Shown piece by piece: positions 1,062-48,212 of a stretch of DNA of 64,000 nucleotides. The notes below the pieces were generated by a model. It saw nothing but the letters and a program-made list of their open reading frames with translations. It did not search any database and was not told the origin of the DNA. The position numbers were made by a program, and so were the translations under genes. Location of the stretch: assembly GCF_057098645.1 (NCBI RefSeq), contig NZ_CM169472.1. One strand, given 5' to 3'. Numbering within the stretch: position 1 is the first letter of the stretch; every line of letters begins with the position of its first letter.

Positions 1062-1073
1062 CACGCTACCGCC
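1062..1073 (-). promoter_or_regulatory. ops element (GGCGGTAGCGTG) in the wza leader, RfaH recruitment site within a JUMPstart region
   Basis: Minus-strand sequence reads GGCGGTAGCGTG about 180 nt upstream of the wza start; matches the ops consensus GGCGGTAGnnTG. Confidence 0.6.
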
Positions 1074-1541
1074 CCTGGCTTTTTAGCTACCAATACACTG
1101 ATTTAGCTTAATTTTTCAAACCCTCTCTGCATACAATCGTTGATGAGAAAGGGTTATTGCGGAAATTAACTTCCGAATATAAGGTGACATTATGGTAATT
1201 GAATATTGGCTCTCCAATAATGCAGGAGGAAGTGTTACAGCTAACGGAATAGCAGGCAAGGTAACAATTCGGCAATTGGCTATTTTTAAGAATTATATTA
1301 AGTGTCATTCAATATGGTTTTTAGGAGTTTCTTTAGGTTGACAATATTTAATATTGCGTCTCCACATGCGATATTTCTTAAATAATGTTTTATTATTACC
1401 ACTTTTAATTCAGGGATAATGTGAGGTTATTACCCTCAAATAATATGAGATAAATAGTGCTGCAACATTGCATTTTTGCCCCGATTTATCCATGATCGAA
1501 TTGTGACATTTGTCATACAACGAATAGGTTTTGTACTTACT

Positions 1542-14639: not shown

Positions 14640-15388
14640 AGCGCCAGTGCCAACGTTTTATCATCATCGGTACGCTCGTTTACCGCCGGGCTCGACAAAA
14701 ACTGCTTTAACAATTCAGGTAATAAATCGAGTTGTTCCTGCGTTGCTGCCGCCAGTCCATTGAAAAACGGGGTAAAGAAAGGCACATGCGGAGAATTATC
14801 CAGCATATTTAACGCCAGTCGCTGAATACCATCCGTAAATGCTGCAACTTTATGCGCACGCTCAGTGCTGGTGAAAGTTTCCAGTCTGGAAACAGCATCT
14901 TCATCGCTAATGAAATGCGTCATATTGGCATATTCACCCACCATCGGCGTGAGCAGCAGTTCCAGACCACGACCAAAATCCACCACTACACCGCCGTCGC
15001 CAATTTGCATAATCAATGTGCCGTTAGCCGATGAAATCAATCCCAGAAACGTGCAGGCAAAATCGCGAACTGCTAATGCTTTGGCTTCTGCCTCGGCAAA
15101 AAGTCGTTGACGAATGGTCAGTACCATATTTGTGGCGAGGACATCATTAAGCCCCAATTCACCGTCCTGTACTTTTTGCACCATAAACGCCATCGCTTCA
15201 TTGACGGCGAGCTTCGCGCCTTCTCCTCCCTGCGAAACGCTACCTGCGCCATCAGCAAGGAACATCACCAGTAATGGCTGCTGGTCATTTAGCCAGGCAA
15301 CCTGCATCTGGCAGGCATCCTGACAAGGTAAATCAGCGCTAATGTGCGACGTTCCAACAGCGGATGCATAAACCAGACGCCAGCTCAC
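14627..15388 (-). CDS. pphC: PP2C-family Ser/Thr protein phosphatase
   Basis: 253-aa ORF with PP2C-type acidic metal-binding motifs ([12 protein letters not shown]); start overlaps yegL stop (ATGA) and its 3' end overlaps the yegI start by 13 nt. Confidence 0.8.
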
Positions 15389-16044
15389 ACTGACGTCCAG
15401 CCTTTTGGCGCTTCCAGCACAACTTCCGTTCCCGGCGTGGAGCGGGAAACCGAACGCAGTGAACTGGATAACCAGCTAAACAGTTCGCGGAATTGTAATC
15501 CCTGCAGAGACAAAGGCTGACGGACGCTGATTTGGGCCAGCGTCTTCATATCCGCCCCCTGAACACCGATGGAAAAGAAGGCAAACTTCTTATCTTCTTC
15601 CCCCTGAAACACTTTGTTGGCGGCAGCCTGCCACTCATCGGTTGGAGCGCCATCGGTGATCAGGAAAATCCACGGGCGATAATACGAAATACCATTTGCA
15701 CGATACTCACGTTTCCGCTCCTCTACCATATCCAGGGCTTTGGTAATGGCGGCACCCATTGGTGTATCGCCCTGGGCAAACAGAATGGGCGGGAAAAAAT
15801 TAGCGGCGCTGGTAAAGGGTTGTTCCACATGCACCGGGCCGAACGTCACAATACCAAGTTCCACTCTTTTTAAGGCCAGCGGGTCGGCAAGCAGCTCATC
15901 GCGAAAGGTAACCAATCCGGCGTTAAGTTCATTAATGGGTCTACCGTTCATCGAACCAGAAACATCCAGCAGCAAAATGCAGGGGCAACGTGGTTCCGGG
16001 TTACTGGCAAAATCGCTGGTGGCAAACGTGATTTGTTCGCTCAT
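15385..16044 (-). CDS. yegL: von Willebrand factor A (vWA) domain protein, TerY-like
   Basis: 219-aa ORF with MIDAS motif DVSGSM (DxSxS) and downstream TDG, the vWA signature. Confidence 0.8.
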
Positions 16045-16227
16045 AAGAAATCCTTTCTTAGAGAATTATTGAGGTCCGGTATCATACCGATTGCAATAAT
16101 GAAATAAGAGCAAACGAAGAAACTTTCAGAATTAGGCCCGGCGGCGCAGAAAATTTTGCTATTCGCCTCGCAAGAACGGAGAGCCGTCGATTGACACTAA
16201 GGGCGGAGTGACATAATTACAGGAGTG

Positions 16228-16375
16228 AGGGTTAGGGAGAAGTTTCCCCCTCCCCCTGGTGTTCTTAGTAAGCCTGGAAGCTAATCACTAAGAGTATCAC
16301 CAGTATGATGACGTGCTTCATCATAACCCTTTCCTTATTTAAAAGCCCTCTTCTCCGGGAGAGGGTTCCCCGTTT
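16228..16375 (+). ncRNA. sibA: Sib antitoxin sRNA, copy 1 (boundaries approximate)
   Basis: Starts just downstream of TTGACA...TAATTA; fully antisense to ibs ORF 1; ends at hairpin ccctcttctccgggagaggg plus T-run. Confidence 0.55.
16265..16324 (-). CDS. ibsA: Ibs-type hydrophobic toxin peptide, copy 1 (MMKHVIILVILLVISFQAY)
   Basis: 19-codon ORF with tandem ATG start and strongly hydrophobic sequence typical of Ibs toxins. Confidence 0.6.
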   Translation of the reverse strand: MMKHVIILVILLVISFQAY

Positions 16376-16556
16376 TAGCGTCCCGCTGAAATCGTCGGCT
16401 TACCTCCTTTCGCCCTGAATGCAGTCTATCGCTGACTTGCGGATAAAATAGTTTCAAGTGTGATTATTGCGTAACGACTCGCAAAGAATATTTGCTGGCA
16501 GGATCGCAGACTGCAAAGCCTGCAGATTGACAATCTTATCGTGAAGGCATACTTTC

Positions 16557-16703
16557 AGGAGTGAGGGTAGAGCGGGGTTTCCCCCGCCCTGGTAGTCTTA
16601 GTAAGCGGGGAAGCTTATGACTAAGAGCACCACGATGATGAGTAGCTTCATCATGACCCTTTCCTTATTTAAGGCCCCTTCCTCGGGAGGGGCTTTCCCG
16701 TTT
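16557..16703 (+). ncRNA. sibB: Sib antitoxin sRNA, copy 2 (boundaries approximate)
   Basis: Promoter TTGACA-N17-TACTTT; antisense to ibs ORF 2; terminator hairpin plus T-run. Confidence 0.55.
16598..16654 (-). CDS. ibsB: Ibs-type toxin peptide, copy 2 (MMKLLIIVVLLVISFPAY)
   Basis: 18-codon hydrophobic ORF antisense to Sib copy 2. Confidence 0.6.
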   Translation of the reverse strand: MMKLLIIVVLLVISFPAY

Positions 16704-16884
16704 CAGCGTCCCGCTGAAATCTTCGGCTTACCTCCTTTCGCCCTGTATGCAGTCTATCGCTGACTTGCGGATAAAATAGTTTCAAGTGTGATTATTGCGT
16801 AACGACTCGCAAAGAATATTTGCTGGCAGGATCGCAGACTGCAAAGCCTGCAGATTGACAATCTTATCGTGAAGGCATACTTTC

Positions 16885-17031
16885 AGGAGTGAGGGTAGAG
16901 CGGGGTTTCCCCCGCCCTGGTAGTCTTAGTATGCTGGGTAGCTAATCACTAAGAGCACCACGATGATGAGTATCTTCATCATGACCCTTTCCTTATTTAT
17001 GGCCCCTTCCTCGGGAGGGGCTTTCCCGTTT
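16885..17031 (+). ncRNA. Sib antitoxin sRNA, copy 3 (boundaries approximate)
   Basis: Third repeat of the promoter/sRNA/terminator block. Confidence 0.5.
16926..16982 (-). CDS. Ibs-type toxin peptide, copy 3 (MMKILIIVVLLVISYPAY)
   Basis: 18-codon hydrophobic ORF in the third repeat; two residue differences from copy 2. Confidence 0.55.
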   Translation of the reverse strand: MMKILIIVVLLVISYPAY

Positions 17032-17189
17032 CAGCGTCCCGCTGAAATCGTCGGCTTACCTCCTTTCGCCATGCAAGCAGTCTATCGCTAACGCGTAGAT
17101 AAAATAGTTTCCTGTGTTATTACTGGATGCGTGCTCGCAAATGTGCCCGCCATTCAGACGATTCCCGATAGTGTTTCATAATTCCTCCA

Positions 17190-17207
17190 TTTTTCTCCCT
17201 TATTGGC
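17190..17207 (+). promoter_or_regulatory. BaeR response-regulator binding box upstream of mdtA
   Basis: TTTTTCTCCCTTATTGGC, about 55 nt upstream of the mdtA start; closely matches the published BaeR box as I recall it (TTTTTCTCCATDATTGGC). Confidence 0.5.
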
Positions 17208-17260
17208 TGGCTACACTAGTATCATTCCGCGAAACGTTTCAGGAAGAGAAACTCTTAACG

Positions 17261-18508
17261 ATGAAAGGCAGTTATAAATCCCGTTGGGTAATCGTAATCG
17301 TGGTGGTTATCGCCGCCATCGCCGCATTCTGGTTCTGGCAAGGCCGCAATGACTCCCAGAGTGCAGCCCCAGGGGCGACGAAACAAGCGCAGCAATCGCC
17401 AGCGGGTGGTCGCCGTGGTATGCGTTCCGGCCCATTAGCCCCGGTTCAGGCGGCGACCGCCGTAGAACAGGCAGTTCCGCGTTACCTCACCGGGCTTGGC
17501 ACCATTACCGCTGCTAACACCGTTACGGTGCGCAGCCGCGTAGATGGTCAGTTGATGGCGTTACATTTCCAGGAAGGCCAGCAGGTCAAAGCAGGCGATT
17601 TACTGGCAGAAATTGACCCCAGCCAGTTCAAAGTTGCATTAGCACAAGCCCAGGGCCAACTGGCAAAAGATAAAGCCACGCTTGCCAACGCCCGCCGTGA
17701 CCTGGCGCGTTATCAACAACTGGTAAAAACCAATCTCGTATCTCGTCAGGAACTGGATGCCCAACAAGCGCTGGTCAGTGAAACCGAAGGCACCATTAAG
17801 GCTGATGAAGCAAGCGTCGCCAGCGCACAGCTGCAACTCGACTGGAGCCGCATCACCGCACCAGTCGATGGTCGCGTTGGTCTCAAGCAGGTTGATGTTG
17901 GTAACCAAATCTCCAGTGGTGATACCACCGGAATTGTGGTGATCACCCAGACGCATCCTATCGATTTGCTCTTTACCCTGCCGGAAAGCGATATCGCTAC
18001 CGTTGTGCAGGCGCAAAAAGCCGGAAAACCGCTGGTGGTAGAAGCCTGGGATCGCACCAACTCGAAGAAATTAAGTGAAGGCACGCTGTTAAGTCTCGAT
18101 AACCAAATCGATGCCACTACCGGTACGATTAAAGTGAAAGCACGCTTTAATAATCAGGATGATGCGCTGTTTCCCAATCAGTTTGTTAACGCGCGCATGT
18201 TAGTCGACACCGAACAAAACGCCGTAGTGATCCCAACAGCCGCCCTGCAAATGGGCAATGAAGGCCATTTTGTCTGGGTGCTGAATAGCGAAAACAAGGT
18301 CAGCAAACATCTGGTGACGCCGGGCATTCAGGACAGTCAGAAAGTGGTGATCCGCGCAGGTATTTCTGCGGGCGATCGCGTGGTGACAGACGGCATTGAT
18401 CGCCTGACCGAAGGGGCGAAAGTGGAAGTGGTGGAAGCCCAGAGCGCCACCACTCCGGAAGAGAAAGCCACCAGCCGCGAATACGCGAAAAAAGGAGCAC
18501 GCTCCTGA
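17261..18508 (+). CDS. mdtA: Multidrug efflux membrane fusion (periplasmic adaptor) protein MdtA
   Basis: ORF 17114..18508; likely start at [15 protein letters not shown] (17261), 415 aa; RND adaptor (HlyD-like) architecture. Confidence 0.9.
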
Positions 18509-21500
18509 TGCAGGTGTTACCCCCGAGCAGCACAGGCGGCCCGTCGCGCCTGTTTATTATGCGTCCTGTGGCCACCACGCTGCTGATGGTGGCGATCTTA
18601 CTCGCCGGGATTATCGGTTATCGCGCCCTGCCCGTTTCGGCGCTGCCGGAAGTGGACTATCCGACCATTCAGGTGGTCACGCTCTACCCAGGTGCGAGCC
18701 CGGATGTCATGACCTCTGCCGTTACCGCGCCGCTCGAACGCCAGTTCGGGCAGATGTCTGGTCTGAAACAGATGTCGTCGCAAAGTTCCGGCGGTGCGTC
18801 AGTTATCACTTTGCAGTTCCAGCTAACATTACCGCTGGATGTCGCCGAGCAGGAAGTACAGGCCGCGATTAACGCTGCGACCAACTTGTTGCCGAGCGAT
18901 CTGCCTAACCCGCCGGTTTACAGCAAAGTGAACCCGGCAGATCCGCCGATCATGACGCTCGCCGTCACCTCAACAGCCATGCCGATGACGCAAGTGGAAG
19001 ATATGGTGGAAACCCGCGTCGCGCAGAAAATCTCGCAGATTTCCGGCGTCGGCCTGGTGTCGCTTTCCGGCGGCCAGCGTCCGGCTGTTCGCGTCAAACT
19101 TAACGCTCAGGCGATTGCCGCCCTCGGCCTGACCAGCGAAACCGTGCGCACCGCCATTACCGGCGCTAACGTTAACTCGGCAAAAGGTAGCCTCGACGGC
19201 CCTTCCCGCGCGGTTACGCTTTCCGCGAACGACCAGATGCAATCCGCCGAAGAGTATCGCCAGTTGATTATCGCCTACCAGAACGGCGCGCCGATTCGTC
19301 TGGGCGATGTCGCAACTGTAGAGCAAGGTGCAGAAAACAGCTGGCTCGGCGCATGGGCGAACAAAGAACAGGCCATTGTGATGAATGTTCAGCGCCAGCC
19401 CGGTGCTAACATTATCTCCACCGCCGACAGCATCCGGCAGATGCTGCCACAGCTCACCGAGAGTTTGCCGAAATCGGTGAAGGTGACGGTACTTTCTGAC
19501 CGTACCACCAATATCCGCGCATCTGTCGATGATACTCAGTTTGAATTGATGATGGCTATCGCGCTGGTAGTCATGATTATCTACCTGTTTTTGCGCAATA
19601 TTCCGGCGACCATCATTCCCGGTGTTGCCGTGCCGCTGTCGTTAATCGGCACTTTTGCGGTTATGGTGTTTCTCGATTTTTCAATCAATAACCTGACACT
19701 GATGGCGTTAACTATCGCCACCGGATTCGTGGTCGATGACGCCATCGTGGTGATCGAAAACATTTCCCGCTATATCGAAAAAGGCGAAAAACCGTTGGCG
19801 GCGGCGCTCAAGGGCGCAGGTGAAATCGGCTTTACCATTATCTCGCTGACCTTCTCACTGATTGCGGTGTTGATCCCACTGCTGTTTATGGGCGATATCG
19901 TCGGGCGACTGTTCCGCGAATTTGCTATTACCCTGGCGGTAGCGATTTTGATCTCAGCGGTGGTGTCGCTGACCCTGACACCGATGATGTGCGCGCGGAT
20001 GCTCAGCCAGGAGTCGTTGCGTAAACAGAACCGCTTCTCCCGTGCCTCGGAAAAAATGTTCGACAGGATAATCGCCGCCTATGGTCGTGGACTGGCGAAA
20101 GTGCTGAATCATCCGTGGCTGACCTTAAGCGTGGCACTCAGCACGCTGCTGCTTAGCGTGCTGCTGTGGGTGTTCATTCCGAAAGGTTTCTTCCCGGTAC
20201 AGGACAATGGCATTATTCAGGGCACTTTGCAGGCACCGCAATCCAGCTCCTTTGCCAATATGGCCCAGCGACAACGCCAGGTCGCGGACGTGATTTTGCA
20301 GGATCCGGCAGTGCAAAGCCTGACCTCATTTGTTGGCGTTGATGGCACTAACCCGTCGCTGAACAGTGCACGTTTACAAATCAACCTCAAACCGTTGGAT
20401 GAACGTGATGATCGGGTGCAAAAAGTCATCGCCCGTCTGCAAACGGCGGTAGATAAAGTGCCGGGCGTCGATCTCTTCCTGCAACCAACGCAGGATCTGA
20501 CTATTGATACTCAGGTCAGCCGCACCCAGTACCAGTTTACCTTGCAGGCCACGTCACTGGATGCGCTCAGTACCTGGGTGCCACAGTTGATGGAAAAACT
20601 CCAGCAACTGCCACAGCTTTCTGATGTCTCCAGCGACTGGCAGGACAAAGGGCTGGTGGCGTATGTCAATGTTGATCGCGACAGCGCCAGCCGTCTGGGG
20701 ATCAGCATGGCGGATGTCGATAACGCCCTGTACAACGCGTTTGGTCAGCGGCTGATTTCCACTATTTATACTCAGGCCAACCAGTATCGCGTGGTGCTGG
20801 AGCACAACACCGAAAATACCCCAGGCCTCGCGGCGCTGGATACCATTCGCCTGACCAGCAGCGACGGCGGCGTGGTGCCGCTAAGCTCAATTGCCAAAAT
20901 TGAGCAGCGTTTTGCGCCGCTCTCCATCAACCATCTGGATCAGTTCCCGGTAACGACCATCTCCTTTAACGTGCCGGATAACTATTCGCTGGGCGATGCG
21001 GTGCAGGCGATTATGGACACCGAAAAGACGCTGAATCTGCCGGTGGATATCACCACGCAGTTCCAGGGCAGCACCCTCGCCTTCCAGTCGGCGCTGGGCA
21101 GCACTGTCTGGCTGATTGTCGCGGCGGTGGTGGCGATGTATATCGTGCTCGGCATTCTGTACGAGAGCTTTATTCACCCGATCACCATTCTCTCGACGCT
21201 ACCCACCGCAGGGGTTGGCGCACTGCTGGCGTTGCTGATTGCTGGTAGCGAACTGGATGTGATTGCGATTATCGGCATTATTTTGCTGATCGGTATCGTG
21301 AAGAAGAACGCCATCATGATGATCGACTTCGCGCTGGCTGCCGAGCGCGAGCAAGGCATGTCGCCGCGCGAGGCAATCTACCAGGCTTGTCTGTTGCGTT
21401 TTCGTCCGATCCTGATGACCACCCTGGCGGCTCTGCTTGGCGCGCTGCCGCTGATGTTGAGTACCGGGGTCGGCGCGGAACTGCGTCGTCCGTTAGGTAT

Positions 21501-21630
21501 CGGCATGGTCGGCGGCCTGATTGTCAGCCAGGTGCTGACGCTGTTCACCACGCCGGTGATTTATCTGCTGTTCGACCGCCTGGCATTGTGGACCAAAAGC
21601 CGCTTTGCCCGTCATGAAGAGGAGGCGTAA
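18508..21630 (+). CDS. mdtB: RND multidrug efflux transporter MdtB
   Basis: 1040-aa ORF, 12-TM RND permease with large periplasmic loops; start overlaps mdtA stop. Confidence 0.9.
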
Positions 21631-24600
21631 GTGAAGTTTTTTGCCCTCTTCATTTACCGTCCGGTGGCGACGATTTTACTGTCGGTTGCCATTACCCTGT
21701 GCGGCATACTGGGCTTCCGTATGCTGCCGGTCGCCCCGCTGCCGCAGGTCGATTTTCCGGTGATTATGGTCAGCGCCTCGCTGCCCGGTGCGTCACCAGA
21801 AACAATGGCGTCTTCCGTTGCCACGCCGCTGGAGCGCTCACTTGGGCGCATTGCCGGAGTCAGTGAAATGACCTCCAGCAGTTCGCTCGGCAGCACGCGT
21901 ATTATTTTGCAGTTTGATTTTGACCGGGATATCAACGGCGCAGCGCGTGATGTGCAGGCGGCGATCAACGCTGCACAAAGTTTGCTGCCCAGTGGGATGC
22001 CCAGCCGCCCGACCTATCGCAAAGCGAACCCGTCGGATGCGCCAATTATGATCCTCACGCTGACGTCCGATACTTATTCGCAGGGTGAACTGTACGATTT
22101 CGCCTCGACGCAGCTGGCTCCGACGATTTCGCAAATCGACGGTGTTGGTGATGTCGATGTCGGAGGCAGCTCACTGCCCGCCGTACGCGTCGGGCTGAAT
22201 CCGCAGGCGCTGTTTAATCAGGGCGTGTCGCTGGACGACGTACGCACCGCCGTCAGCAATGCCAACGTGCGTAAACCGCAGGGCGCGCTGGAAGATGGCA
22301 CTCACCGCTGGCAGATCCAGACCAATGATGAGCTAAAAACCGCCGCTGAATATCAGCCGTTGATTATTCATTACAACAACGGCGGCGCGGTTCGTCTGGG
22401 CGATGTGGCGACGGTGACCGACTCAGTGCAGGATGTGCGCAACGCCGGGATGACCAACGCCAAACCGGCTATTTTACTGATGATCCGCAAACTGCCGGAA
22501 GCCAATATTATCCAGACGGTTGACAGCATCCGGGCAAAATTACCGGAGTTGCAGGAAACCATTCCGGCGGCGATTGATCTGCAAATTGCCCAGGATCGCT
22601 CCCCCACCATTCGCGCCTCGCTGGAAGAAGTCGAGCAAACGCTGATTATCTCGGTGGCGCTGGTGATTCTGGTGGTGTTTTTATTCCTGCGCTCGGGTCG
22701 CGCCACTATTATTCCCGCCGTTTCGGTGCCGGTTTCGCTGATTGGTACGTTTGCGGCGATGTACCTGTGCGGATTCAGTCTCAATAACCTTTCGTTAATG
22801 GCGCTCACCATCGCTACTGGTTTCGTGGTGGATGACGCCATCGTGGTGCTGGAAAACATTGCACGTCATCTGGAAGCGGGAATGAAACCGTTGCAAGCCG
22901 CACTGCAAGGTACTCGCGAAGTCGGTTTTACGGTGCTGTCGATGAGTCTGTCACTGGTGGCGGTGTTCCTGCCGCTGCTGTTGATGGGCGGATTGCCGGG
23001 CCGACTGTTACGCGAGTTTGCCGTGACGCTTTCTGTCGCCATTGGTATTTCGTTGCTGGTTTCTCTGACATTAACGCCAATGATGTGTGGCTGGATGCTG
23101 AAAGCCAGCAAGCCGCGCGAGCAAAAGCGACTGCGTGGTTTTGGTCGCATGTTGGTAGCCCTGCAACAAGGCTACGGCAAGTCACTGAAATGGGTGCTCA
23201 ATCATACCCGTCTGGTGGGCGTGGTGCTGCTTGGCACCATTGCGCTGAATATCTGGCTGTATATCTCGATCCCGAAAACCTTCTTCCCGGAGCAGGACAC
23301 TGGCGTGTTGATGGGCGGGATTCAGGCGGATCAGAGTATTTCGTTTCAGGCGATGCGCGGTAAGTTGCAGGATTTCATGAAAATTATCCGTGACGATCCG
23401 GCAGTGGATAATGTCACCGGCTTTACAGGCGGTTCGCGAGTGAACAGCGGGATGATGTTTATCACCCTCAAGCCACGCGACGAACGCAGCGAAACGGCGC
23501 AGCAAATTATCGACCGTCTGCGCGTAAAACTGGCGAAAGAACCGGGGGCGAATCTGTTCCTGATGGCGGTACAGGATATTCGCGTTGGTGGGCGTCAGTC
23601 GAACGCCAGCTACCAGTACACGTTGTTATCCGACGACCTGGCGGCACTGCGCGAATGGGAGCCGAAAATCCGCAAAAAACTGGCGACGTTGCCGGAACTG
23701 GCGGACGTGAACTCCGATCAGCAGGATAACGGCGCGGAGATGAATCTGGTTTACGACCGTGACACCATGGCACGGCTGGGAATCGACGTACAAGCCGCCA
23801 ACAGTCTGTTAAATAACGCCTTCGGTCAGCGGCAAATCTCGACCATTTACCAGCCGATGAACCAGTATAAAGTGGTGATGGAAGTGGATCCGCGCTATAC
23901 CCAGGACATCAGTGCGCTGGAAAAAATGTTCGTTATCAATAACGAAGGCAAAGCGATCCCGCTGTCGTATTTCGCTAAATGGCAACCGGCGAATGCCCCA
24001 CTATCGGTGAATCATCAGGGATTATCGGCGGCCTCGACCATTTCGTTCAACCTGCCGACCGGAAAATCGCTCTCGGACGCCAGTGCGGCGATCGATCGCG
24101 CAATGACCCAGCTTGGTGTGCCTTCGACGGTGCGCGGCAGTTTTGCCGGAACAGCGCAGGTGTTCCAGGAGACGATGAACTCACAGGTGATCCTGATTAT
24201 CGCCGCCATCGCCACGGTGTATATCGTGCTGGGTATCCTTTACGAGAGTTATGTGCACCCGCTGACGATTCTCTCCACCCTGCCCTCGGCGGGTGTTGGA
24301 GCGCTGCTGGCGCTGGAGCTGTTCAATGCCCCGTTCAGCCTAATCGCCCTGATAGGGATCATGCTATTAATCGGCATCGTGAAGAAAAACGCCATTATGA
24401 TGGTCGATTTTGCGCTTGAAGCCCAACGGCACGGTAACCTGACGCCGCAGGAAGCTATTTTCCAGGCCTGTCTGCTGCGTTTTCGCCCGATTATGATGAC
24501 TACCCTGGCGGCGCTGTTTGGCGCGCTGCCGCTGGTGTTGTCGGGCGGCGACGGCTCGGAGCTGCGGCAACCCCTGGGGATCACCATTGTCGGCGGACTG

Positions 24601-30274: not shown

Positions 30275-30358
30275 TTAATTTCGATTATTTTTCCCGGATG
30301 GAAAATTCTTAGAAACCGATCACATACAGCTGCATTTATTAAGGTTATCATCCGTTTC

Positions 30359-30445
30359 GCTGAAAAACATAACCCATAAAATGCTAGCTGTACCAGGAAC
30401 CACCTCCTTAGCCTGTGTAATCTCCCTTACACGGGCTTATTTTTT
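30359..30445 (+). ncRNA. cyaR: CyaR (RyeE) Hfq-dependent sRNA
   Basis: gctgaaaaacataacccataaaatgctagctgtaccaggaaccacctccttagcctgtgtaatctcccttacacgggcttattttttt: CCUCCU anti-SD seed, then terminator hairpin gcctgtgtaa/ttacacgggc plus U-tract; CRP half-site-like TCACA upstream. Confidence 0.75.
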
Positions 30446-47994: not shown

Positions 47995-48118
47995 TGCTCC
48001 TGCCATAACGTGAAGAAGCAATGACCTGGTGGTCCGTGACTTCCCTACGCTGGCATTATCCAGATCAGGTGATACGGGTATTTCTCAGCCTTCACGCAGA
48101 AGGGCACCCCGAGTCGTT
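47995..48118 (-). promoter_or_regulatory. TPP (THI-box) riboswitch in the thiM 5' leader
   Basis: Minus-strand leader reads ...ggggtgcccttctgcgtgaaggctgagaaatacccgtatcacctgatctggataatgccagcgtagggaa..., the conserved THI-element core (CUGAGA, ACCUGAUCUGGAUAAUGCCAGCG). Confidence 0.8.
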
Positions 48119-48212
48119 TGGTTGCGATGATAAATCGCAGAGGAGGATGGTAATGTCCAGCGCACGCGTTGTAAACGAGGAAAAACGGCAGTTTTACAAT
48201 CGCGTTAATAAA

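What the first reader, a model, noticed from the sequence alone, without database searches (positions are those of the whole stretch)
16225..17090. Three tandem Sib/Ibs type I toxin-antitoxin units in the yegL-mdtA intergenic region
A block of about 328 bp is repeated three times. Each copy carries a plus-strand promoter-sRNA-terminator unit and a fully antisense 18-19 codon hydrophobic ORF with a double ATG: MMKHVIILVILLVISFQAY, MMKLLIIVVLLVISFPAY and MMKILIIVVLLVISYPAY. From memory, K-12 has two copies (sibA/ibsA, sibB/ibsB) at this locus, so this strain appears to have an extra or diverged copy. The peptide C-termini differ between copies (FQAY, FPAY, YPAY), which may reflect cognate sRNA specificity.
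Basis: partly seen in the sequence, partly recalled or inferred. Interest (0 to 1): 0.5.

Follow-up and report, generated by a model that had tools for sequence, protein, structure and literature searches.

The report
Three Sib/Ibs toxin-antitoxin repeats
The yegL-mdtA gap of this E. coli genome holds three tandem copies of the well-known Sib antisense RNA / Ibs toxic-peptide module instead of the two in K-12, an ordinary and already annotated copy-number variant found in roughly four of ten complete E. coli genomes.

Summary
Three full-length Rfam SIB_RNA matches (141-145 bits against a 56-bit threshold) lie on the + strand. The period is 328 bp.

K-12 has two units. It equals this window minus one 328-bp repeat, with the crossover in a 26-nt identical stretch.

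The third unit is not unusual:
- A systematic sample of 59 loci from 5,426 complete E. coli genomes gave about 42% with three units, 41% with two, 12% with four and 2% with one.
- RefSeq already annotates the third peptide (WP_012767742.1, also present in O157:H7).

Units 2 and 3 differ at only 8 of 204 positions. Five of these fall in the 23-nt TRD1, the specificity loop defined experimentally for SibC, and four of the five are synonymous. TRD2 is identical in the two units, so cross-repression is possible.

Other strains carry the same unit alleles in other orders and numbers, which fits unequal recombination. One private T-to-A change sits in the sibA -10 hexamer.

Verdict: a real, already known system of low interest.

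The parts
16191..16226 (+). Sib-1 (sibA) promoter. The -35 box TTGACA is at 16191-16196. After a 17-nt spacer the -10 hexamer at 16214-16219 reads TAATTA here but TAATTT in K-12. Transcription starts at G16227.
   Evidence: Sequence. The MG1655 sibA 5' end maps to 16227. +1G for sibA and sibB is stated in PMC12956327. The A at 16219 matches none of 4,822 genomes.
16227..16371 (+). Sib-1 antitoxin RNA, the SibA orthologue, about 145 nt. TRD1 lies at 16271-16293, the P6 hairpin at 16305-16324, the single-stranded TRD2 at 16324-16343 and the terminator hairpin at 16346-16365.
   Evidence: Rfam hit of 144.9 bits. It differs from MG1655 sibA by 3 mismatches and 1 indel. Fold energy -54.2 kcal/mol, z-score -4.45. 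Coordinates.
16265..16324 (-). ibs-1 = ibsA, 19 codons plus stop, MMKHVIILVILLVISFQAY.
   Evidence: Translation. The peptide is identical to K-12 IbsA, WP_010723109.1.
16527..16562 (+). Sib-2 promoter: TTGACA at 16527-16532, 17-nt spacer, TACTTT, transcription start at G16563.
   Evidence: 100% identical to the K-12 sibB promoter.
16563..16698 (+). Sib-2 antitoxin RNA (SibB-type), 136 nt. TRD1 lies at 16604-16626, P6 at 16635-16654, TRD2 at 16654-16671 and the terminator at 16674-16693.
   Evidence: Rfam hit of 142.0 bits. The MG1655 sibB ends map to 16563 and 16698. Fold energy -62.5 kcal/mol, z-score -4.41.
16598..16654 (-). ibs-2 = ibsB, 18 codons plus stop, MMKLLIIVVLLVISFPAY.
   Evidence: Translation. 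The peptide is identical to K-12 IbsB, WP_001386899.1.
16855..16890 (+). Sib-3 promoter, identical in sequence to the Sib-2 promoter.
16891..17026 (+). Sib-3 antitoxin RNA, 136 nt, the unit K-12 lacks. TRD1 lies at 16932-16954 and differs from Sib-2 at 5 positions. P6 lies at 16963-16982, with 1 difference in its loop. TRD2 at 16982-16999 is identical to Sib-2. The terminator is at 17002-17021.
   Evidence: Rfam hit of 140.8 bits. Fold energy -58.1 kcal/mol, z-score -3.81, same architecture as the other two. Differences are listed. The stretch 16790-17000 is matched at 99% or better in 256 records, with every listed top hit at 100%.
16926..16982 (-). ibs-3, 18 codons plus stop, MMKILIIVVLLVISYPAY.
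   Evidence: Translation. The peptide is identical to RefSeq WP_012767742.1, annotated in O157:H7, strain 042, 2009C-3133 and MS 196-1.
16372..16526 (.). Spacer 1. It contains the presumed ibs-1 leader start and promoter on the minus strand. A -10-like GACGAT is the reverse complement of 16391-16396.
   Evidence: Repeat family D2. The hexamer sits at the position equivalent to the ibsC -10 TACGAT. I located that ibsC hexamer myself from the statement that ibsC mRNA has an 18-nt 5' overhang beyond SibC (PMC2943612) and the K-12 sibC sequence. This is inference: the consensus promoter scan found nothing here.
16699..16854 (.). Spacer 2, differing from spacer 1 at two positions. It contains the presumed ibs-2 promoter on the minus strand; a -10-like GAAGAT is the reverse complement of 16719-16724.
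   Evidence: Inference as for spacer 1.
17027..17141 (.). Partial third spacer, with the presumed ibs-3 promoter on the minus strand. A -10-like GACGAT is the reverse complement of 17047-17052, and a -35-like TTGCAT lies 18 nt upstream of it. Repeat homology ends at about 17141 and the sequence continues into the mdtA upstream region.
   Evidence: Third copy of family D2, 81% identity. The stretch 16974-17149 is 100% identical to the region upstream of K-12 ibsB.

Best explanation
The region is a tandem array of three Sib/Ibs type I toxin-antitoxin modules in the yegL-mdtA intergenic region of an E. coli chromosome. Unit 1 is sibA/ibsA, unit 2 is sibB/ibsB, and unit 3 is a third allele that K-12 lacks but many other strains carry.

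Each unit is expected to work as shown for the K-12 modules. A weak minus-strand promoter makes an ibs mRNA encoding an 18-19 residue hydrophobic membrane toxin. A strong, constitutive plus-strand promoter makes a Sib RNA of about 140 nt. Sib is complementary to the ibs ribosome-binding site and the whole ORF. It binds first through loop TRD1 (antisense to the 3' end of the ORF) or through the single-stranded TRD2 (antisense to the translation-initiation region), and this leads to repression and degradation of the mRNA.

Copy number at this locus changes by unequal homologous recombination between the 328-bp repeats. Units stay distinct mainly through substitutions in TRD1 and in the P6 loop.

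Shown here: sequence identity, family membership, predicted fold, the population distribution of copy number, and where the differences between units lie. Inferred by homology: expression, toxicity, and which Sib represses which ibs.
For: - Family membership. Three Rfam RF00113 hits score 141-145 bits, each full length.
- Peptides. The three antisense ORFs encode K-12 IbsA, K-12 IbsB and RefSeq WP_012767742.1.
- Boundaries. The MG1655 sibA and sibB annotations map onto 16227-16371 and 16563-16698.
- Fold. All three RNAs are predicted to fold alike: a P1 closing stem, a hairpin presenting TRD1, the P6 hairpin, a single-stranded TRD2 and a terminator, with z-scores of -3.8 to -4.5.
- Promoters. 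The Sib-2 and Sib-3 promoters equal the K-12 sibB promoter, and the region upstream of ibs-3 (16974-17149) is 100% identical to that of K-12 ibsB.
- Relation to K-12. K-12 equals the window minus 16646-16973. The crossover is confined to the identical stretch 16646-16671.
- Copy number. Verified arrays have one unit, two, three and four. A systematic sample of 59 loci gave 25 with three units, 24 with two, 7 with four, 1 with one and 2 unclear.
- Shuffling. The same unit alleles occur in different orders in different strains.
- Where units differ. Five of the 8 differences between units 2 and 3 in the transcribed module lie in the 23-nt TRD1, and 4 of those 5 are synonymous. Across 17 distinct non-A units, 11 of about 18 variable columns within the Sib RNA lie in TRD1 (7) or the P6 loop (4).
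- Mechanism. It is taken from Han et al. 2010, PMC2943612. T1TAdb, PMC8594479, states that Sib overlaps and spans the entire ibs ORF and is fully overlapped by the ibs mRNA.
Against: - No expression or toxicity data exist for this strain.
- The consensus promoter scan found neither the Sib nor the ibs promoters. The likely Sib -10 hexamers match the consensus at only 2-3 of 6 positions, below the scan's threshold of 4, and the alternative CATAAT/CATACT reading needs a 15-nt spacer, outside its 16-18 range. The ibs promoters are weak. The ibs promoters are therefore placed only by positional analogy with ibsC.
- The sibA -10 hexamer reads TAATTA instead of TAATTT (a private change), so Sib-1 may be under-expressed.
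- TRD2 is identical in Sib-2 and Sib-3. In SibC either TRD alone is enough for repression, so units 2 and 3 may not be orthogonal pairs.
Confidence: 0.93

Rival explanations
1. The third unit is a recent, functionally redundant or decaying duplicate of sibB/ibsB rather than a maintained, distinct module.
For: Units 2 and 3 share identical Sib promoters and an identical TRD2, and differ at only 8 of 204 positions in the module.
Against: The ORF, start codons, Shine-Dalgarno sequence, terminator and promoter are all intact. The stretch 16790-17000 is matched at 99% or better in 256 records from diverse strains, with every listed top hit at 100%. Its peptide is shared with O157:H7, strain 042 and others. 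The differences cluster in TRD1 and are mostly synonymous, which is not the pattern of neutral decay.
Confidence: 0.05
2. The three-unit array is an assembly artefact, produced by mis-resolving a two-unit repeat.
For: Tandem 328-bp repeats at 95% identity can be mis-assembled from short reads.
Against: The three units differ at diagnostic sites, so they are not copies of one read pile. Three-unit arrays occur in about 42% of a sample of complete, mostly long-read-finished genomes. Each unit allele in the window occurs elsewhere.
Confidence: 0.02

Closest known systems
E. coli K-12 sibA/ibsA and sibB/ibsB (Sib/Ibs type I toxin-antitoxin family, Rfam RF00113; formerly QUAD repeats / RyeC, RyeD)
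   Same: The locus is the same (yegL-mdtA). The IbsA and IbsB peptides are identical. Sib-1 differs from MG1655 sibA by 3 mismatches and 1 indel. Sib-2 matches sibB up to the ibs start codon. The promoter geometry, predicted fold, fully antisense ORF and terminator are the same.
   Different: The window has one more 328-bp unit. K-12 sibB corresponds to a hybrid of the window's unit 2 (5' part) and unit 3 (3' part plus the region upstream of ibs). The window's sibA -10 hexamer carries a private T-to-A change.
Three-unit yegL-mdtA arrays of E. coli O157:H7 and many other strains, as annotated by RefSeq/PGAP. Fozo et al. 2010 count seven Ibs genes in O157:H7 Sakai.
   Same: Both have three units, and the last peptide, MMKILIIVVLLVISYPAY (WP_012767742.1), is the same. 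The higher Ibs count in O157:H7 is published in PMC2887945.
   Different: The middle unit of O157:H7 encodes MMKWIIIVVLLVISFPAY rather than IbsB, and its last unit has a different Sib promoter spacer sequence. The window's combination of alleles has no match better than 99.3% over the 1.9-kb locus query in 5,426 genomes.
SibC/ibsC of K-12, the module for which recognition was dissected (Han et al. 2010)
   Same: The architecture is the same. TRD1 and TRD2 can be aligned position for position, anchored on G49CU51 and C107-C113.
   Different: The locus differs (fau-serA). SibC starts with +1A, whereas the units here start with +1G, so they are not expected to be NAD-capped (PMC12956327). The TRD sequences also differ.

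Membership tests
Sib/Ibs type I toxin-antitoxin (Rfam RF00113 SIB_RNA) | The RNA matches the SIB_RNA covariance model above its gathering score. | tested here: met
   Scores of 144.9, 142.0 and 140.8 bits against a threshold of 56, each covering model positions 1-147.
Sib/Ibs type I toxin-antitoxin (Rfam RF00113 SIB_RNA) | An 18-19 codon hydrophobic ORF lies entirely within, and antisense to, the Sib RNA. | tested here: met
   The ORFs at 16324..16265, 16654..16598 and 16982..16926 lie inside Sib 16227-16371, 16563-16698 and 16891-17026. Their peptides are identical to RefSeq Ibs proteins.
Sib/Ibs type I toxin-antitoxin (Rfam RF00113 SIB_RNA) | The Sib fold has a P1 closing stem, a hairpin loop carrying TRD1, the P6 hairpin, a single-stranded TRD2 and an intrinsic terminator. 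| tested here: met
   All three units have the same predicted architecture, with z-scores of -3.8 to -4.5, and they align to the structure line of the covariance model. This is prediction only, not probing.
Sib/Ibs type I toxin-antitoxin (Rfam RF00113 SIB_RNA) | A functional constitutive Sib promoter. | tested here: inconclusive
   Units 2 and 3 are 100% identical to the K-12 sibB promoter. Unit 1 has a private T-to-A change at the last base of the likely -10 hexamer. The consensus scan reports none of the three, since the likely -10 hexamers match only 2-3 of 6 positions, below its threshold.
Sib/Ibs type I toxin-antitoxin (Rfam RF00113 SIB_RNA) | A functional ibs promoter and mRNA that extends beyond the Sib 3' end. 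| tested here: inconclusive
   There is no consensus hit. The region upstream of ibs-3 is 100% identical to that of K-12 ibsB. GACGAT or GAAGAT hexamers sit at the position equivalent to the ibsC -10, which is my inference.
Sib/Ibs type I toxin-antitoxin (Rfam RF00113 SIB_RNA) | The Ibs peptide is toxic when over-produced, and the toxicity is relieved by the cognate Sib. | not testable with these tools
   Known for the K-12 modules (Fozo et al. 2008, as summarised in PMC2943612). Not tested for the third allele.
Sib/Ibs type I toxin-antitoxin (Rfam RF00113 SIB_RNA) | Chromosomal position at one of the three conserved E. coli sib loci. | tested here: met
   The array lies between yegL and mdtA, as sibA and sibB do in MG1655.

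The most novel reading that the evidence does not exclude
The yegL-mdtA array may behave as a recombining cassette array. Unequal crossover shuffles a small pool of unit alleles into arrays of one to four units. Selection acts at the RNA level, through mostly synonymous changes in the TRD1 loop and the P6 loop, to keep neighbouring modules distinguishable. The shared TRD2 would leave a back-up layer of cross-repression. In this strain, a unique recombinant (A, then B, then the unit that follows A in strain 042) also carries a private change in the sibA -10 hexamer. The SibA antitoxin might therefore be weakened while ibsA is held silent by its paralogues. I found no paper describing the population structure of this array in such detail, but the library does not hold Fozo et al. 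2008.
Probability: 0.2. Interest if true: 0.3.

Novelty: already known. Interest (0 to 1): 0.12.

Why it matters
It matters little beyond annotation. It shows that K-12 is not representative at this locus and that Sib/Ibs copy number is polymorphic, from one to four units. Anyone studying Sib/Ibs cross-talk, or designing probes and knockouts in non-K-12 strains, needs to know about the third and fourth alleles. It also matters that neighbouring units differ almost only in TRD1 and share TRD2. The TRD1-focused, mostly synonymous divergence is a neat natural confirmation of the specificity determinants mapped by mutagenesis in SibC.

Tried and rejected
- Consensus promoter and terminator scan of 15900-17400. 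It found no Sib or ibs promoter, and its only terminator call was the Sib-1 terminator hairpin read on the wrong strand. The scan is too strict for these promoters, so I relied on identity to K-12 instead.
- Fozo et al. 2008 (PMC2597788), the primary description. It is not held in the library, so its findings are cited only through Han et al. 2010 and Fozo et al. 2010.
- Exact census of copy number in all 5,426 genomes. The search tool joins repeated pieces, so two-unit genomes also cover 100% of the query, and coverage cannot separate the classes. I used systematic 'spread' samples and the length of the matched span instead.
- Hits with 75-76% coverage. I first took them for rearranged loci, but the two I inspected are four-unit arrays.
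- Placing the ibs promoter by eye. A TTGAAA box in spacers 1 and 2 has no -10 partner at a workable spacing and is absent upstream of ibs-3 and K-12 ibsB, so I dropped it.
- The 38-40 codon minus-strand ORFs in the spacers (16335..16457 and 16669..16785). They are not conserved after unit 3 and overlap the ibs leader, so I did not treat them as genes.
- Protein-family tools. They could not be used because the peptides are shorter than the 20-residue minimum.

Full report
**Observation**

The sequence between yegL (15385-16044, minus strand) and mdtA (ATG at 17262) contains a direct repeat. Neighbouring copies are 95% identical over 300 nt. The start-to-start spacing is 328 bp between copies 2 and 3, and 328-336 bp between copies 1 and 2, depending on the segment compared.

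Rfam's SIB_RNA model (RF00113) matches three times on the + strand, at 16191-16339, 16527-16669 and 16855-16997. The scores are 144.9, 142.0 and 140.8 bits against a gathering score of 56, and each match covers the whole model. No other Sib copy lies in the 64-kb window.

On the minus strand, inside each Sib, there is an ORF starting ATGATG:
- 16324..16265, MMKHVIILVILLVISFQAY
- 16654..16598, MMKLLIIVVLLVISFPAY
- 16982..16926, MMKILIIVVLLVISYPAY

**Anatomy**

The MG1655 annotation gives sibA as 144 nt and sibB as 136 nt, both starting GAGGGT. Mapped onto the window, this gives Sib-1 at 16227-16371, Sib-2 at 16563-16698 and Sib-3 at 16891-17026.

Each unit has TTGACA 36 nt upstream of the start site, then a 17-nt spacer and a weak -10 hexamer (TAATTA, TACTTT, TACTTT). 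The start base is G, as reported for sibA and sibB (PMC12956327).

I anchored Han et al.'s SibC numbering on two markers, G49CU51 and C107-C113, in the K-12 sibC sequence. The target recognition domains then map as follows:
- TRD1: 16271-16293, 16604-16626 and 16932-16954. This is antisense to the last seven codons of ibs and part of the preceding one.
- TRD2: 16324-16343, 16654-16671 and 16982-16999. This is antisense to the ibs Shine-Dalgarno sequence and start region.

All three RNAs are predicted to fold the same way. A closing stem P1 encloses a 5' hairpin, a hairpin that presents TRD1, and the ATGATGA/TCATCAT hairpin P6. A single-stranded TRD2 and a GC-rich terminator follow. The z-scores are -3.8 to -4.5.

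**Relation to K-12**

K-12 has two units here. A global alignment shows that K-12 equals the window with 16646-16973 (328 bp) removed.

Within unit 2, the window is identical to K-12 sibB from the promoter to 16645. From 16974 to 17149 it is identical to the 3' part of K-12 sibB and the region upstream of ibsB. K-12 sibB/ibsB therefore corresponds to a hybrid of the window's units 2 and 3. The crossover is confined to the 26-nt stretch between the two nearest diagnostic differences, at 16645 and 16672.

**How unusual three units are**

Three units are not unusual. Of 5,426 complete E. coli genomes, 5,419 match the locus.

I classified a systematic sample of 60 records, taken at even steps down the ranking, by the length of the matched span and the annotated Ibs genes:

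| Units at the locus | Records |
|---|---|
| Three | 25 |
| Two | 24 |
| Four | 7 |
| One | 1 |
| Unclear | 2 |
| No match at this locus | 1 |

A 40-record sample gave the same picture.

I inspected examples of every class:
- One unit: Z1323PEC0014.
- Two units: K-12, O145:H28 RM13514 and 2009C-3133.
- Three units: STE15, O157:H7 and strain 042.
- Four units: MIN12 and MS 196-1.

RefSeq annotates all of them as 'type I toxin-antitoxin system Ibs family toxin'. The window's third peptide is WP_012767742.1. Fozo et al. 2010 already reported seven Ibs genes in O157:H7 Sakai, against five in K-12, and inferred repeated duplications in the family (PMC2887945).

**Array dynamics**

The same unit alleles occur in different orders and numbers in different strains:

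| Strain | Order of units (peptide type) |
|---|---|
| K-12 | A, LL-FPAY |
| This window | A, LL-FPAY, IL-YPAY |
| O157:H7 | A, WI-FPAY, IL-YPAY |
| MS 196-1 | A, LL-FPAY, WI-FPAY, IL-YPAY |
| 042 | A, IL-YPAY, LL-WPAY |
| 2009C-3133 | A, IL-YPAY |
| Z1323PEC0014 | LL-WPAY only |

In the window, unit 3 and the 3' end of the spacer before it (16790-17000) are 100% identical to the unit that directly follows sibA in strains 042 and 2009C-3133. The window therefore looks like a recombinant between a K-12-like array and a 2009C-3133-like array.

No genome in the collection matches the 1.9-kb locus query better than 99.3%. The flanking mdtB-mdtC genes are 100% identical to O145:H28 strains, yet RM13514, the one whose locus was inspected, carries only two units with a different second allele. 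The array therefore turns over faster than its flanks. This fits unequal homologous recombination and gene conversion among 328-bp repeats.

**Specificity**

Han et al. 2010 showed three things for SibC (PMC2943612). It recognises ibsC through two independent domains, TRD1 and TRD2. These lie in the most variable parts of the Sib family. Swapping them re-targets SibC to ibsD.

In the window, units 2 and 3 differ at 8 of 204 positions across the module, counted from the Sib -35 box to just beyond the presumed ibs -10. Five of the 8 lie in the 23-nt TRD1. One lies in the P6 loop, in codon 4 (Leu to Ile). One lies just 3' of TRD2. One lies in the presumed ibs -10.

Of the five TRD1 changes, four are synonymous (Ala, Pro, Ile, Val) and one changes Phe to Tyr. 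Across 17 distinct non-A units from ten genomes, 7 variable columns fall in TRD1 and 4 in the P6 loop, out of about 18 within the 136-nt RNA.

The C-terminal codons coincide with the specificity loop, but the signal lies in the RNA, not in the peptide.

TRD2 is identical in Sib-2 and Sib-3. Either TRD alone is enough for repression in SibC. I therefore infer that Sib-2 and Sib-3 may cross-repress, as has been reported for ibsA with non-cognate Sibs.

**Are all units functional?**

All three ORFs, their Shine-Dalgarno sequences, the terminators and the predicted folds are intact. The Sib-2 and Sib-3 promoters equal the K-12 sibB promoter. The region upstream of ibs-3 equals that of K-12 ibsB.

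The ibs promoters could not be found by consensus scanning. The ibsC mRNA starts 18 nt beyond the SibC 3' end. By analogy, GACGAT (units 1 and 3) or GAAGAT (unit 2) sits at the position equivalent to the ibsC -10 TACGAT. This is inference only.

There is one oddity. The base at 16219, the last base of the likely sibA -10 hexamer, is A here. It is T in K-12 and in all ten other loci I read. None of 4,822 genomes matches the 90-nt segment 16151-16240 exactly; the best hits all have a single mismatch. This may weaken SibA transcription. SibA-deficient K-12 cells are viable, so such a change could be tolerated.

**Verdict**

This is a real and correctly identified Sib/Ibs array. The third unit is extra only in comparison with K-12. 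It is a common, already annotated polymorphism of a well-studied family. Interest is low.

The most novel reading that remains open is that the locus is a recombining cassette array under RNA-level diversifying selection at its kissing loops, with this strain carrying a unique arrangement and a possibly weakened sibA promoter. That would be a modest refinement of known biology.

Noticed in passing
window 16219 (sibA promoter, 16191-16226): There is a private T-to-A change at the last base of the likely -10 hexamer of sibA: TAATTA here, TAATTT in K-12 and in 10 other loci. None of 4,822 complete E. coli genomes matches 16151-16240 exactly. It could reduce SibA antitoxin transcription.
   Followed up: partly
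window 20000-23000 versus 16027-17262; L007: mdtB-mdtC are 100% identical to O145:H28 strains. RM13514, the one whose yegL-mdtA locus was inspected, has only two Sib/Ibs units, with a hybrid second allele (MMKILIIVVLLVISFPAY). The array therefore evolves much faster than its flanks.
   Followed up: partly
minus strand of window 16401-16408, 16729-16736 and 17057-17064: A perfect Shine-Dalgarno-like AAGGAGGT is conserved in every spacer. It lies upstream of the presumed ibs transcription start, within the promoter spacer. No start codon follows at a usable distance. Its role is unknown.
   Followed up: no
window 30357-30442 (+): CyaR (RyeE) small RNA, Rfam RF00112, 100.7 bits.
   Followed up: no
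window 48025-48121 (-): TPP riboswitch, RF00059, 71.2 bits, presumably the leader of thiMD.
   Followed up: no
window 1062-1100 (-) and 40100-40170 (-): A JUMPstart element (RF01707, 57.3 bits), probably upstream of the colanic-acid wza operon, and a naRNA4 / REP-derived element (RF02564, 64.5 bits).
   Followed up: no
L005 (NZ_CP148268.1), locus 821-1150: The single-unit strain Z1323PEC0014 has the sibA-type promoter fused to a non-A body (MMKLLIIVVLLVISWPAY). This is a collapse of the whole array by recombination between the first and last units.
   Followed up: partly
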